Positions 22,875-25,378 of a stretch of DNA of 64,000 nucleotides are shown in pieces. The notes under the pieces were generated by a model. That model did no database searches. It was given only the letters and a program-made list of their open reading frames with translations, and was not told the origin of the DNA. A program made the position numbers and the translations under genes. The stretch is from the NCBI GenBank assembly GCA_050633205.1, contig JBOEGA010000046.1, positions 12,535-76,534 of the forward strand, written 5' to 3'. Positions within the stretch are counted from its first letter, which is position 1. Each line of letters starts with the position of its first letter. The stretch is from Methyloligellaceae bacterium (lineage in GTDB: Bacteria; Pseudomonadota; Alphaproteobacteria; Rhizobiales; CBDHHC01).

Positions 22875-23732
22875 TTGAAAACTTATTTAAATCTATATTA
22901 TTTTCTTTTTGCTAGTTTGTCCGTTCATTCATGTGTTCTGGGCTTATCGAGTATGTATTTTTTTATCGCAGCGTTGATATTGATACTGGATGCGGCCACT
23001 GGTTCTGTTATTGCAAGCTCCGGTGTTGTTACGCCCGAGCAGCTTGCCGAACTGCGTAATGATCTGAACAGGTTTGCGGAAGAGCAGCAAAGACACGCCG
23101 ACTTTGTGAGGGTGCTGGATTGTATTGCTCTGGTCATGTTTATGCAGGTTGGTTTTCTTCTTGTTGAAGCGGGCTTTGTGCGGACAAAAAATACGATCAA
23201 TGTTGCTCTGAAAAATTTCAGTGATTTCTTTATTGCTGTTGTCTGTTTTTATATGGTTGGCTTCACATTTATGTTCAGTGGCAGCCTTGGTGGTGTAATC
23301 GGGTTTGACTGGTCGTATATTTCAAAGGTTTTTAAATCCAACTGGGATCTGGCGTATTTTACATATCATGCAATGTTTATTGGTACGGCGGCTACAATAG
23401 TATCCGGTGCGGTTGCAGAACGCATGAAGTTTTCGGGTTATTGCCTGCTTACAGTCGTACTATCCTCCCTGATTTACCCGATGTTCGGGCACTGGGTCTG
23501 GGGGAATATATTTGTTACAGAAAATATTCCGCTTTTAAAAAGCGCGGGATTTATGGATTTTGCCGGGGGGACAGTTGTCCACGCTTTGGCTGGCTGGTTA
23601 TCACTGGCAGCAATAGTTGTTGTTGGTCCACGAATTGGAAAATTTGCGGAAGATGGTACTCCTGTTAAAATTCCCGGCCACAGTATGTTCTTGCCTCAAC
23701 AGGAGCGCTTATTCTTTTTGTCGGCTGGATAG
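22875..23732 (+). pseudogene. Amt ammonium-channel domain, fragment 1 of a disrupted Amt-HAMP-MCP gene
   Basis: It carries LVEAGFVRTKN, TIVSGAVAERMKF, GHWVWG, DFAGGTVVH and PGHS. The frame is then lost and a stop follows at 23730-23732. The start is uncertain (TTG 22875 or ATG 22953). Confidence 0.85.
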
Positions 23733-23782
23733 GATTTAATGCCGGTTCTACCCGAGCATCTTCCTCCGACCTTGCTCTTATC

Positions 23783-24424
23783 ATGATGAATACGATTATA
23801 GCGGGCTCTACAGGTGGCCTTGCTGCAATGGTTACAGGGCGCTTTTTCGAGAAGACGTTTCATGCCGAGACTATGATTAATGGTGTTCTGGCAGGGCTTG
23901 TTACAGTTACTGCGGGATGCAATGTCTTTTCTCCAAATGCTGCAGCTATTGTGGGCATTATTGGTGGTGTGGTGTGTATGGGGTCCTGCGTTGTTATTGA
24001 AAGAAAATTCAAGCTTGATGATGCTATCGGAGCTGTTTCAGTTCATGGTGTCTGCGGGTCACTTGGAGCGCTGTTGATACCGTTTTTTGCTGCTTCTGAG
24101 AAAATGCTTGCCGGTGGGATGTTTACCCAGGCTGGTTCGCAATTAATCGGGGTAAGTGTCTGTTTCGCACTTGCTTTTGGTGGCGGGTATATCGTGTTGA
24201 AGCTTATCAGTGTAACAATCGGAGTTCGTGTAAGTGAAGAGGCAGAGATTAATGGCCTTAATCGCTCAGAGCATGATTCTACGATGGGGTCCTATGATAT
24301 ACAGAACGCCCTGCTTAAAATTGCAAAAGGTGAAGCTGATTTATCGACCAGGCTGGATGAGAAAACAGGGGATGAATCTGCTGATATTGCCAAGCTGATC
24401 AATTCTTTTCTGGTAAGGTTTTAA
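23783..24424 (+). pseudogene. Amt domain C-terminal half plus HAMP-like connector, fragment 2
   Basis: This frame is open from 23669 and reads ...VLASTGALILFVGWIGFNAGS..., the canonical Amt motif missing from fragment 1. Then come SVHGVCGSLGAL, the last TMs and IAKGEADLSTRLDEKTGDESADIAKLINSFLVRF. It ends at a TAA (24422-24424). Confidence 0.85.
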
Positions 24425-24490
24425 GAGCTTGTTGGCAGTGTATCGGATACCTCCAATACACTATCGAGAGACCTTGAACTAATTTCATCC

Positions 24491-25378
24491 GTGGTGAAGG
24501 ATAGTGCCAATTCTCTCAAAGATAATTCCGGTGGGGTTGAAGAGGCATCCCTGGTCGTGAATGCCAGTGCGACTGCGGCGGCTGAGCAGGCAGAAGTTAT
24601 TACGAATGATACGCGGAGAATTGCAGGAACTGCCAGAACAGTTTCTACGACTATTCGTGAGCTGGCTAATGTTATTGATAATTTATCCGGCTCAATCACT
24701 TCTATTGATGAGTCCGCAGCTAGTGCGGATTCTATTTCCAAGGAAGCTGTTAGTCTGGCAGATAATGCCCAGAAGACGATTGCCAGTCTTTCGAAAGCTG
24801 CTGAGGAGATTGACAGTGTTGTGGCACTGATCGAGGATGTTCAGAATAAAACCAATCTGCTGGCACTTAATGCAACAATTGAATCCGAACGTGCAGGGGA
24901 ATATGGTCTTGGTTTTGCTGTGGTTGCACAGGAAGTCAAAACATTATCCCAGAGTGCTGCCGGGGCAACTGATGAAATTCGCAAATGTCTTGGCGAGATA
25001 CAGGAAACTTCCAAAAGCGCGGCAGATATTCTCAGCAGAGTTGGTGAGACTGTAGGAGTTATTAATAAATCAGTTTCAGATATCAGGGTTACAGCCAGCA
25101 GAGAAACTCAGGCTATTCAGGAAATTTCCTCGGGTGTTATCGAGTCTGCGAACAATGTAGTCGGGGTTTCTGATGAGATTTCACAATTGTCTGATCAGGT
25201 CAGTCTGTTTTCAGAGAATGTGAGAGAGGCGGCAGATAAATCAAAGGATGGGCTGGATGTGGTTGCCTGCCTGAAGGATGAAGTTGCGAATAGTCTGCAA
25301 ACAGCACAAATGGTTGAAAAATCTTCGCAAAAGCTAACGGGGCTTGCGGATAAGCTGAATAAAACCAGTGGAAATTAA
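24491..25378 (+). pseudogene. Methyl-accepting chemotaxis protein signalling domain, fragment 3 (same frame as fragment 2)
   Basis: [35 protein letters not shown] is the MCP hairpin-tip signature. The frame is continuous with fragment 2 across the single TAA, and codons 24425-24490 read ELVGSVSDTSNTLSRDLELISS. Confidence 0.85.

What the first reader, a model, noticed from the sequence alone, without database searches (positions are those of the whole stretch)
22875..25378. Ammonium-channel (Amt) domain fused to an MCP chemoreceptor signalling domain
Three consecutive same-strand ORFs (22875-23732, 23783-24424, 24491-25378) are pieces of one reading unit of about 834 codons. Pieces 1 and 2 together give a complete Amt/AmtB channel. 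Visible conserved blocks are LVEAGFVRTKN, TIVSGAVAERMKF, GHWVWG, DFAGGTVVH, GALILFVGWIGFNAGS and SVHGVCGSLGAL. Directly after the last TM comes a HAMP-like connector (IAKGEADLSTRLDEKTGDESADIAKLINSFL). A full MCP cytoplasmic domain follows, including the hairpin-tip signature [34 protein letters not shown]. An Amt pore as the input module of a chemoreceptor would link ammonium binding or conduction directly to CheA/CheW control, giving ammonium taxis without a periplasmic ligand-binding domain. As I recall, Amt-like domains fused to histidine kinases have been described as ammonium sensors. I know of no characterised Amt-MCP protein.
Basis: partly seen in the sequence, partly recalled or inferred. 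Interest (0 to 1): 0.75.

Follow-up and report, generated by a model that had tools for sequence, protein, structure and literature searches.

The report
Broken ammonium-sensor chemoreceptor gene (Amt-HAMP-MCP)
The three ORFs are the remains of one gene that fuses an ammonium-transporter-like sensor to a chemotaxis-receptor signalling domain; the fusion is real, widespread in bacteria and experimentally unstudied, but in this genome it was very recently inactivated by a stop codon and a frameshift.

Summary
Observation confirmed. Window 22953-25378 (+) is one 808-codon gene encoding signal/TM helix, 11-TM Amt module, HAMP-like linker and a long MCP hairpin (Pfam Ammonium_transp 1.4e-103, MCPsignal 2.4e-26, HAMP 24.7 bits against a cut-off of 25). 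It carries two lesions: loss of one G near 23687 (frameshift) and CAA>TAA at 24422-24424 (an in-frame stop, not a frameshift). Two sister species carry an intact 809-aa orthologue (89% and 72% identity) in identical synteny. An independently assembled strain (99.6% identical) shares the TAA but not the frameshift. dN/dS (0.04) and a relative-rate test show no decay, so inactivation is very recent. The host is a Methyloligellaceae MAG (Alphaproteobacteria).

The Amt module is closest to the two characterised ammonium receptors, Sd-Amt1 and Ks-Amt5, and carries their complete N1/N2 ammonium-binding signature. At least 120 protein clusters and about 30 named species across several phyla have the same Amt-MCP architecture, all annotated only as "ammonium transporter". 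I found no paper describing them.

Best reading: a dead copy of an uncharacterised MCP-output branch of the known ammonium-receptor class, probably a direct ammonium chemoreceptor. This is a new variant of a known kind, of moderate interest.

The parts
22953..25378 (+). Whole Amt-HAMP-MCP pseudogene. It would encode 808 aa if the two lesions were repaired. The start is ATG 22953 and the stop is TAA 25376-25378.
   Evidence: It is collinear with the intact 809-aa orthologues P0001 and P0002. Pfam and NCBIfam hits on the repaired chain support the architecture.
22875..22904 (+). Weak sigma-70-like promoter match (TTGAAA-18-TATTTT) upstream of the start codon.
   Evidence: Consensus scan only. 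The region has fewer matches than shuffled controls, so this is not evidence of function.
22953..23018 (+). N-terminal hydrophobic helix (residues 1-22), a signal peptide or extra TM helix. It places the Amt N-terminus outside the cell and the C-terminal tail in the cytoplasm.
   Evidence: Hydropathy peak at residues 3-21. AF2 predicts a helix at residues 2-22 in the orthologue.
23121..24283 (+). Amt module (residues 57-444), with pore residues H210/H365 (twin-His), F142/F262 (Phe gate), W181/W183, S266 and D202. It is interrupted by the frameshift.
   Evidence: Pfam PF00909 at 1.4e-103. The pore residues are invariant or nearly so in 121 family members. The AF2 model has pLDDT above 90 and matches 6eu6 at TM 0.96.
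23145..23405 (+). N1/N2 ammonium-binding signature of the ammonium-receptor class: Q65-X6-E72-X15-N88-X2-D91-F92-X55-T148-X2-S151.
   Evidence: The regex from PMC11152129 matches residues 65-151. The ligands are identical to those of Sd-Amt1 and absent from the transporters Af-Amt1 and AmtB. Q, E, N, D, T and S are invariant in the family.
23685..23690 (+). Lesion 1: loss of one G (ATG-GTT became ATG-TT), shifting frame 0 to frame 2 after Met245.
   Evidence: Frame translations. Orthologues read GHSMVLAST. It is the only indel in the gene that is not a multiple of three. It is absent from strain contig L003.
24293..24433 (+). HAMP-like linker (residues ~448-494) with AS1, connector and AS2, preceded by the conserved Amt C-terminal tail GVRVSEEAEINGLNRSEH.
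   Evidence: Pfam HAMP scores 24.7 bits, just under the 25-bit cut-off. The junction consensus is strongly conserved across the family. AF2 predicts helix 448-458, loop, then helix from 475.
24422..24424 (+). Lesion 2: in-frame TAA replacing Gln491 (CAA) at the end of HAMP AS2. It cuts the sensor from the signalling domain.
   Evidence: Orthologues read ERFQELV. The stop is shared by the independently assembled strain contig L003 from SRR26541444.
24434..25375 (+). MCP kinase-control module (residues 495-808), a long antiparallel coiled-coil hairpin. Pfam MCPsignal covers 24713-25207. The hairpin-tip Glu650 is at 24899-24901. The arms are 156 and 158 aa, about 22 heptads each (44H-like).
   Evidence: Pfam PF00015 at 2.4e-26. 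The best PDB match is Thermotoga Tm1143 (2ch7). AF2 predicts hairpin H529-647/H649-773.
25394..25432 (.). Strong 16-bp hairpin followed by a T-run, acting as an intrinsic terminator between the convergent Amt-MCP and malic-enzyme genes.
   Evidence: Terminator scan and the sequence itself.

Best explanation
Window 22953-25378 is a very recently inactivated copy of a single-polypeptide Amt-HAMP-MCP receptor in a Methyloligellaceae MAG (Alphaproteobacteria).

In intact family members the 11-TM Amt module most likely acts as a receptor rather than an uptake channel, as shown for its closest characterised relatives Sd-Amt1 and Ks-Amt5. NH4+ is selected at the periplasmic vestibule (Trp/Ser). It passes the Phe gate and the twin-His and is captured in the lateral N1/N2 site. 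The resulting shift of the conserved C-terminal tail is passed through a HAMP-like unit into a 44-heptad-type MCP hairpin. The conserved tip of that hairpin would control CheA/CheW, giving ammonium chemotaxis without a periplasmic ligand-binding domain.

Shown here:
- the architecture;
- intact orthologues in identical synteny;
- the N1/N2 ligand set and pore residues;
- closest sequence and fold similarity to the two known receptors;
- the nature and recency of the lesions.

Inferred:
- ammonium binding without transport;
- HAMP-mediated coupling;
- CheA control, and whether ammonium acts as attractant or repellent.

In this genome a Gln491>TAA mutation uncoupled sensor from output first, because it is shared between strains. 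A 1-nt deletion then broke the Amt module in the window's strain.
For: - **Architecture:** Pfam and NCBIfam hits on the repaired chain.
- **Intact orthologues:** P0001 (89% identity) and P0002 (72%), both 809 aa, sit in identical synteny: GNAT, SDR, gene, malic enzyme, MutS, GlnD.
- **Lesions defined:**
- **Strain evidence:** the TAA is shared and the frameshift is absent in the independent 99.6%-identical contig L003.
- **Past selection:** dN/dS is 0.040 against 0.014-0.074 for intact neighbours. The segment downstream of the stop has dN/dS 0.027. There are 25 lineage-specific amino-acid changes in the window against 22 in the intact L001 lineage. Six of seven inter-strain SNPs are synonymous.
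- **An isolated casualty:** every other gene checked in the 64 kb has an intact ORF with full-length domain matches.
- **Closest solved structures:** Sd-Amt1 at 289 bits and Ks-Amt5 at 276 bits, against 158 for Af-Amt1 and about 145 for AmtB. Identity to Sd-Amt1 is 40%. Foldseek gives TM 0.96 and 0.94 to the two sensors.
- **Signature:** the N1/N2 signature from PMC11152129 is met. Its ligands are invariant in 121 Amt-MCP proteins. They occur in 28/30 MCP-output and 15/17 other-output relatives but only 14/33 plain Amts.
- **No glnK:** none lies next to the gene in the five loci inspected.
- **Modular sensor:** the same Amt module is fused to HK, PAS-GGDEF-EAL and Hpt-HATPase outputs elsewhere.
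- **Fold:** the AF2 model shows Amt, helix-loop-helix, then a long hairpin.
Against: - No experiment exists on any Amt-MCP protein.
- The N1/N2 signature also occurs in bona fide transporters: plant AMT1 according to PMC11152129, and 14/33 plain Amts. It does not prove receptor-only behaviour.
- The Pfam HAMP score is marginally below threshold.
- The canonical methylation consensus is absent from the window protein and from 101 of 121 family members. No CheR-tethering pentapeptide was found in any of the 121. Adaptation, if any, is non-canonical.
- No che or flagellar genes lie in the window or next to family members. Whether this organism has a chemotaxis pathway could not be checked.
- The Amt trimer against MCP dimer symmetry mismatch is unresolved.
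- The frameshift is seen only in the MAG and could be an assembly error.
Confidence: 0.72

Rival explanations
1. The nonsense allele is a functional split. An Amt-HAMP protein of about 490 aa and a separately translated soluble MCP fragment, re-initiated at GTG 24491, still work, together or independently. The locus would then not be a dead gene, at least in strain L003.
For: In L003 the Amt-HAMP part is uninterrupted over the part the contig covers, from about residue 53. All 5 inter-strain SNPs downstream of the TAA are synonymous. dN/dS downstream of the stop is the lowest of the three segments, at 0.027.
Against: There is no Shine-Dalgarno-like sequence before GTG 24491. The fragment would lack the TM region, the HAMP and the first ~22 residues of the N-arm, so it would have no input. 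All 120 closest homologues, and the MCP-output loci from the genome scan, encode the two parts as one chain. The window's strain has taken a second hit in the Amt part, as expected for a gene no longer under selection. The synonymous bias is equally explained by a very young stop codon sitting on older standing variation. The numbers are small.
Confidence: 0.08
2. One or both lesions are sequencing or MAG-assembly artefacts, and the gene is intact in the living cells.
For: The source is a metagenome-assembled genome. The 1-nt deletion lies in a GG dinucleotide and is absent from the only other assembly of this species that covers the site. The gene shows no sign of relaxed selection.
Against: The TAA is a substitution, not an indel, and is present in an independent per-run assembly that differs from the window at 24 other positions. 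No other frameshift or premature stop turned up in the ORF survey and per-gene checks of the 64-kb window, which argues against a generally error-prone assembly. Two lesions falling in the same 2.4 kb by chance error is unlikely.
Confidence: 0.05
3. The family does not act as a motility chemoreceptor for external ammonium. Either the Amt module is a working transporter whose flux or GlnK-like state is merely reported, or the MCP module feeds a Che-like pathway that controls something other than flagellar rotation, such as c-di-GMP, biofilm or development.
For: All pore residues needed for conduction are intact. The N1/N2 signature is shared with true transporters (PMC11152129). Most members lack canonical methylation sites, and none has the pentapeptide. 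A PilZ gene follows the Azospirillum halopraeferens copy and PilZ is fused in P0116-P0118. A response regulator and a PAS kinase lie next to the gene in the Rhizobiaceae MAG.
Against: Ks-Amt5 and Sd-Amt1 have the same intact pore residues yet bind rather than transport (PMC5764959, PMC11152129). The MCP tip ([22 protein letters not shown].EV) is the universal CheA/CheW-binding motif. No glnK is linked. The second variant does not contradict ammonium sensing, only the identity of the output.
Confidence: 0.15

Closest known systems
Sd-Amt1 of Shewanella denitrificans (Amt-HAMP-GGDEF ammonium receptor; PDB 8qj3/8qj4/8qpf; Pfluger et al. 2024, PMC11152129)
   Same: It is the best sequence match among solved structures (289 bits, 40% identity over 388 aa). 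The N1/N2 ligand residues are identical (Q, E, N, D-F, T, S). The twin-His and Phe gate are the same. The conserved C-terminal tail runs into a HAMP unit followed by a cytoplasmic transducer.
   Different: The output is an MCP kinase-control hairpin of about 314 aa, presumed to act on CheA/CheW and motility, instead of a diguanylate cyclase. No biochemical data exist for the Amt-MCP family. The window copy is inactivated.
Ks-Amt5 of 'Candidatus Kuenenia stuttgartiensis' (Amt-histidine kinase ammonium sensor; PDB 6eu6; Pfluger et al. 2018, PMC5764959)
   Same: It is the best fold match (TM 0.96, rmsd 1.6 A) and scores 276 bits. It carries the N1/N2 signature in the D-T variant and has an Amt module fused C-terminally to a signalling module.
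   Different: Ks-Amt5 has no HAMP (stated in PMC5764959) and drives a DHp/CA kinase directly. The window family has a HAMP-like linker and an MCP module that has no catalytic activity of its own.
Canonical transmembrane MCPs (for example E. coli Tsr/Tar; Thermotoga maritima Tm1143, PDB 2ch7)
   Same: PF00015 signalling domain, conserved hairpin tip, symmetric antiparallel coiled-coil arms and a HAMP between membrane and bundle.
   Different: The input is an 11-TM trimer-forming transporter fold instead of a 2-TM dimer with a periplasmic ligand-binding domain. The strict methylation consensus and the C-terminal pentapeptide are missing. How a trimeric input pairs with a dimeric bundle is unknown.
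Assimilatory ammonium transporters (E. coli AmtB, A. fulgidus Amt-1)
   Same: Same fold and pore residues, and the same Pfam family PF00909.
   Different: They lack the N1/N2 ligands (AmtB T/Y/V/T-F; Af-Amt1 V/Y/S/S-L). They score far lower (about 145 and 158 bits). They have no fused transducer. By established knowledge they are usually encoded next to glnK, which is not the case at the five loci inspected here.

Membership tests
Amt/Mep/Rh ammonium transporter superfamily (PF00909) | Profile match above the curated threshold | tested here: met
   PF00909 scores 347 bits against a cut-off of 23.2. TIGR00836 scores 352 bits against a cut-off of 343.3.
Amt/Mep/Rh ammonium transporter superfamily (PF00909) | 11-TM Amt fold with twin-His, Phe gate and periplasmic Trp/Ser | tested here: met
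   H210/H365, F142/F262, W181/W183 and S266 are present and at least 96% conserved in 121 relatives. The AF2 model of the orthologue matches 6eu6 at TM 0.96.
Ammonium receptors (AmR; Ks-Amt5 / Sd-Amt1 class) | N1/N2 signature Q-X6-E-X15-N-X2-D-[FT]-X54-60-T-X2-[ST] (PMC11152129) | tested here: met
   The signature matches residues 65-151 with X55. The ligands are identical to those of Sd-Amt1. The signature is not exclusive to sensors: 14 of 33 plain Amts also carry the core ligands.
Ammonium receptors (AmR; Ks-Amt5 / Sd-Amt1 class) | Amt module fused C-terminally to a cytoplasmic transducer module in one polypeptide | tested here: met
   It is a single 809-aa ORF in the orthologues and in all 120 best hits. 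In the window itself the chain is broken by the TAA.
Ammonium receptors (AmR; Ks-Amt5 / Sd-Amt1 class) | Binds NH4+ with high affinity without net translocation, and ammonium modulates the output | not testable with these tools
   This needs SSM electrophysiology, ITC and kinase assays on an intact orthologue.
Methyl-accepting chemotaxis proteins (PF00015) | MCP signalling domain above threshold with a conserved hairpin tip | tested here: met
   PF00015 scores 93 bits against a cut-off of 34.6. The tip [28 protein letters not shown] is present. The tip columns are invariant in the family.
Methyl-accepting chemotaxis proteins (PF00015) | Antiparallel coiled-coil hairpin with arms of matched length (heptad class) | tested here: met
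   The N-arm is 156 aa and the C-arm 158 aa, about 22 heptads each. AF2 predicts helices 529-647 and 649-773. Assignment to the 44H class is by length only, because class HMMs were not available.
Methyl-accepting chemotaxis proteins (PF00015) | HAMP domain between membrane and bundle | tested here: inconclusive
   Pfam HAMP scores 24.7 bits against a cut-off of 25. The sequence fits IA.G..DL..R...(n)..DE...A...N.F, and AF2 gives a helix-loop-helix at pLDDT about 72.
Methyl-accepting chemotaxis proteins (PF00015) | Methylation sites [ASTG][ASTG]xx[EQ][EQ]xx[ASTG][ASTG] and/or a CheR-binding pentapeptide | tested here: not met
   There is no strict site in the window protein and none in 101 of 121 family members. 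No xWxxF C-terminus was found. This feature is common in MCPs but not universal.
Methyl-accepting chemotaxis proteins (PF00015) | Genome encodes CheA/CheW/CheY and a motility apparatus | not testable with these tools
   Only 64 kb is available and it holds no che or fla genes. The rest of the MAG and of GCA_041156665.1 and GCA_041156685.1 could not be retrieved.
Pseudogene (recent) | Disrupting lesions relative to intact orthologues, confirmed independently | tested here: met
   The nonsense codon is shared with an independent strain assembly. The frameshift is unique to the window. There is no rate acceleration, so the inactivation is recent.

The most novel reading that the evidence does not exclude
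Amt-HAMP-MCP proteins are a distinct, widespread class of chemoreceptor and the first direct receptor for ammonium chemotaxis in bacteria. A trimeric 11-TM transporter fold replaces the dimeric 2-TM input. This would force a non-canonical coupling between trimeric sensors and dimeric MCP bundles, for example pairing of tails within or between Amt trimers, possibly templating trimers of dimers. Signalling would also proceed without canonical methylation-based adaptation, because 101 of 121 members lack consensus sites. The shared TAA allele with purely synonymous downstream variation could then mark a population caught in the act of shedding ammonium taxis.
Probability: 0.3. Interest if true: 0.7.

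Novelty: new variant of a known kind. Interest (0 to 1): 0.45.

Why it matters
Amt-based ammonium receptors were established only in 2018 and 2024, with kinase and diguanylate-cyclase outputs. The authors predicted that many more Amt-based signalling systems remain to be found (PMC11152129). An MCP output would connect that sensing principle directly to motility. It would also name a candidate molecular receptor for bacterial ammonium chemotaxis, for which my literature searches found no identified receptor.

The family occurs in culturable marine and soil Alphaproteobacteria: Roseibium, Phaeobacter inhibens, Terasakiella, Rhodobium, Roseospirillum and Azospirillum halopraeferens. The hypothesis is therefore directly testable.

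Two further points are of interest. First, how does a trimeric sensor drive a dimeric four-helix bundle that normally packs as trimers of dimers? Second, these genes are annotated everywhere simply as 'ammonium transporter', which overstates uptake capacity and understates sensory capacity.

The specific locus in this window matters less. It is a freshly broken copy, useful mainly as an example of receptor loss in a natural population.

Tried and rejected
- **Genome scan for the organism:** The organism was identified through cluster names of neighbouring proteins instead.
- **First tip regex:** it was too strict and missed most MCPs. I replaced it with a local HMM.
- **Tremblay & Hallenbeck 2009:** this review of Amt fusion sensors is cited by both key papers but is not held in the library. 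I cannot say whether it already lists Amt-MCP architectures. From memory it discusses Amt fusions to signalling domains in general.
- **Supplement of PMC11152129:** Fig. 7B lists domain organisations, but the supplement is not held.
- **ORF3 look-up:** looking up the 295-aa ORF3 product to count samples with the split allele returned only the contig already known.
- **GenBank annotation of the fragments:** I considered inferring from NCBI accession spacing that the three fragments are deposited as separate CDSs. This is unverified, so I do not rely on it.
- **Stop-codon recoding or readthrough of TAA:** there is no support. The lesion is a simple CAA>TAA relative to the orthologues, and I saw no evidence of stop-codon reassignment in the window.
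- **Long-dead pseudogene:** rejected, because there is no excess of lineage-specific changes.
- **Conserved operon partners (glnK, che genes):** none were found in five loci.
- **Not used:** the representative-protein search and a second structure job, because they would not have discriminated between the hypotheses.
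Full report
**1. Observation**

Reading the junctions in all frames and comparing with intact orthologues defines the lesions:
- **Lesion 1** is the loss of one G from ATG-GTT at about 23686-23688. 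Orthologues read GHSMVLASTGAL. The loss shifts frame 0 to frame 2.
- **Lesion 2** is an in-frame TAA at 24422-24424, where orthologues have Gln (ERFQELV). It is not a frameshift, because ORF2 and ORF3 share a frame.

The true start is ATG 22953, equivalent to the start of the orthologues, so the gene has 808 codons rather than 834. The motif GALILFVGWIGFNAGS lies between ORF1's stop and ORF2's first ATG, in ORF2's frame.

The repaired chain scores as follows:
- PF00909 Ammonium_transp: 1.4e-103.
- PF00015 MCPsignal: 2.4e-26.
- PF00672 HAMP: 24.7 bits, against a cut-off of 25.
- TIGR00836: above its trusted cut-off.

**2. Is it one gene elsewhere?**

Yes. All 120 best hits in a 5.8-billion-protein search carry both PF00909 and PF00015 in chains of about 680-970 aa, most of them 780-900 aa.

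The two closest, P0001 (89% identity) and P0002 (72%), are uninterrupted 809-aa proteins. Their loci (L001 from GCA_041156665.1 and L002 from GCA_041156685.1) show the same gene order as the window: GNAT, short-chain dehydrogenase, Amt-MCP, convergent NADP-malic enzyme, MutS, GlnD. L001 is collinear with the window at about 82% nucleotide identity over 22 kb.

**3. Are the lesions real, and how old are they?**

An independent per-run assembly exists: Logan contig L003 from SRR26541444, 6.7 kb, 99.63% identical to the window with 24 SNPs. It carries the TAA but has the G that the window lacks. The nonsense mutation is therefore real and shared between strains. The frameshift is either a later hit specific to one strain or, less likely, a MAG assembly error.

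No other disrupted gene was seen in the 64-kb window. It encodes IF-2, NusA, PNPase, MetK, MurJ, TrpRS, MutS, GlnD, BipA and Ffh among others.

Several measures indicate very recent inactivation:
- Window against L001, the gene has dN/dS 0.040, inside the range of its intact neighbours at 0.014-0.074.
- The segment downstream of the stop has the lowest value, 0.027.
- With L002 as outgroup, the window lineage has 25 unique amino-acid changes against 22 in the intact L001 lineage.
- Between the two strains, 6 of 7 SNPs in the gene are synonymous, including all 5 downstream of the stop.

Together these say the gene was under normal purifying selection until very recently.

**4. Organism**

Exact-sequence look-ups of neighbouring proteins return NCBI names of the form 'MAG... 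[Methyloligellaceae bacterium]' on a 76.6-kb contig. Methyloligellaceae belongs to Hyphomicrobiales, Alphaproteobacteria.

**5. What kind of Amt module?**

The closest solved structures are the two characterised ammonium receptors: Sd-Amt1 (8qj3/8qj4/8qpf, 289 bits) and Ks-Amt5 (6eu6, 276 bits). The transporters score far lower: Af-Amt1 at 158 bits and AmtB at about 145 bits. Identity to Sd-Amt1 is 40% over 388 aa.

Pfluger et al. 2024 (PMC11152129) propose Q-X6-E-X15-N-X2-D-[FT]-X54-60-T-X2-[ST] as the N1/N2 ammonium-binding signature of this receptor class. The window protein matches it at residues 65-151 with the same ligands as Sd-Amt1. Af-Amt1 and AmtB lack them.

In an alignment of 121 Amt-MCP proteins the ligands Q, E, N, D, T and S are invariant. 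The [FT] position is F in 89, L in 21 and M in 8. The twin-His, Phe gate, Trp and Ser are at least 96% conserved.

As a control I checked the loci recovered by one scan. The core ligand set is present in 28/30 MCP-output relatives, 15/17 other-output relatives and only 14/33 unfused Amts. The signature is enriched in sensors but not exclusive to them, as the paper itself cautions for plant AMT1.

**6. Junction and output**

The Amt C-terminal tail and linker form a strongly conserved block: GLRVS.EDE..GLN.AEHGATLGTG...G..DL..RLD...GDEAAE.A...NPF.D....LV. The block fits the HAMP pattern.

An AlphaFold2 model of the intact orthologue has mean pLDDT 81.5. It shows:
- the Amt core at pLDDT above 90;
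- helix 448-458, a loop, then a helix from 475, which is HAMP topology at pLDDT about 72;
- one long hairpin, helices 529-647 and 649-773.

Foldseek places the model closest to 6eu6 (TM 0.96) and 8qj3 (TM 0.94).

The two arms are 156 and 158 aa, about 22 heptads each, so the hairpin is 44H-like by length. The tip carries the universal CheA/CheW-binding motif.

The strict methylation consensus is absent from the window protein and from 101 of 121 relatives. No C-terminal pentapeptide was found.

The window's TAA sits at the end of HAMP AS2, where it severs sensor from output.

**7. Distribution and context**

A junction-specific scan of one genome per species returned 80 loci:
- **30 encode Amt-MCP.** Most are Alphaproteobacteria: Roseibium, Cohaesibacter, Roseospirillum, Rhodobium, Terasakiella, Curvivirga, Sphingomonas, and Micavibrio and Rickettsiales MAGs. 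Others are Rhabdochromatium (Gammaproteobacteria), Gracilibacillus (Bacillota), Desulfovibrionaceae, spirochaetes, Planctomycetota and Verrucomicrobia.
- **17 are long but lack an MCP module.** The six I scanned carry histidine kinase, hybrid kinase, PAS-GGDEF-EAL or Hpt-HATPase outputs.
- **33 are plain Amts.**

Neighbourhoods of distant members share nothing. There is no glnK and there are no che genes. A PilZ gene follows the Azospirillum halopraeferens copy.

Where a source names these proteins at all, it calls them only 'ammonium transporter'.

**8. Literature**

Nine full-text searches and targeted reading of the Ks-Amt5 paper, the Sd-Amt1 paper and a 2023 Amt review found no mention of an Amt-MCP or ammonium chemoreceptor in bacteria. 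The 2009 review by Tremblay and Hallenbeck, which surveyed Amt fusions, could not be read.

**9. Interpretation**

The locus is a freshly inactivated copy of an Amt-HAMP-MCP receptor. By homology to Sd-Amt1 and Ks-Amt5, intact members most likely capture NH4+ in the N1/N2 site. They would then pass a conformational change through the C-terminal tail and HAMP into the MCP bundle, which controls CheA. That would give direct ammonium chemotaxis.

The architecture, the ligand set and the relationships are shown here. Binding without transport, CheA coupling and the direction of the response (attractant or repellent) are inferred.

Three rivals were considered:
- A functional split gene (about 0.08).
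- An assembly artefact (about 0.05 for the stop codon; higher for the frameshift alone).
- A family that is a transporter or that feeds a non-motility Che-like pathway (about 0.15).

**10. Verdict**

However, the copy here is dead, the architecture is common, and the sensing principle is already known with other outputs. This is a new, experimentally uncharacterised variant of a known kind. It is of moderate interest, mainly as a pointer to a testable candidate ammonium chemoreceptor family and to an unresolved trimer-to-dimer coupling problem.

Noticed in passing
L070 (Spirochaetaceae MAG, contig REDM01000057.1), ORF spanning the match at 1969-2427: A sensor-type Amt with the same conserved tail is fused to an Hpt domain plus HATPase_c. 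This is a CheA-like kinase output attached directly to an Amt module, without an MCP intermediary.
   Followed up: partly
window 24434-25375, and the 121-member family alignment: The strict methylation consensus [ASTG][ASTG]xx[EQ][EQ]xx[ASTG][ASTG] is absent from the window protein and from 101 of 121 Amt-MCP proteins. None has an xWxxF C-terminal pentapeptide. Adaptation may be non-canonical or absent.
   Followed up: partly
window 24889, 24946, 24988, 25021, 25051, compared with L003: All five inter-strain SNPs downstream of the shared TAA are synonymous in the MCP frame. This is unexpected for a dead reading frame unless the stop is very young or the fragment is still translated.
   Followed up: partly
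L086 10469-10897 (Azospirillum halopraeferens); proteins P0116-P0118: A PilZ (c-di-GMP-binding) gene lies immediately downstream of the Amt-MCP gene. In three other family clusters PF07238 PilZ is fused to the same polypeptide. This suggests c-di-GMP input to some of these receptors.
   Followed up: no
window 21460-22039 (-): The GNAT acetyltransferase gene has a 1-nt insertion relative to L001 about 35 nt into the L001 gene model (175 aa against 192 aa). This is either a different start codon or a 5' frameshift.
   Followed up: no
window 12306-12357 (+): An ffh sRNA (Rfam RF01793, 41.9 bits) lies just upstream of the 496-aa ORF at 12620-14110. I take that ORF to be ffh (SRP54) from the sRNA context, but I did not scan it. 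It is 99.2% identical to its L001 counterpart.
   Followed up: no
window 2651-4666 (+), 8211-9671 (-), 11628-12077 (-): Two GGDEF-EAL proteins and a MazF/PemK-like toxin ORF lie in the left part of the window. The organism therefore has c-di-GMP signalling, but no che genes are visible here.
   Followed up: no
window 34067-35326 (+), and L001 21118-22377: A 419-aa ORF downstream of glnD, present in both species, has no Pfam match at E<=1e-5.
   Followed up: no
AF2 model of P0001, residues 516-528 and 765-783: Two low-confidence breaks (pLDDT below 50) sit at roughly mirror positions in the N- and C-arms of the MCP hairpin. They may mark a flexible hinge or be an artefact of modelling a monomer.
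   Followed up: no
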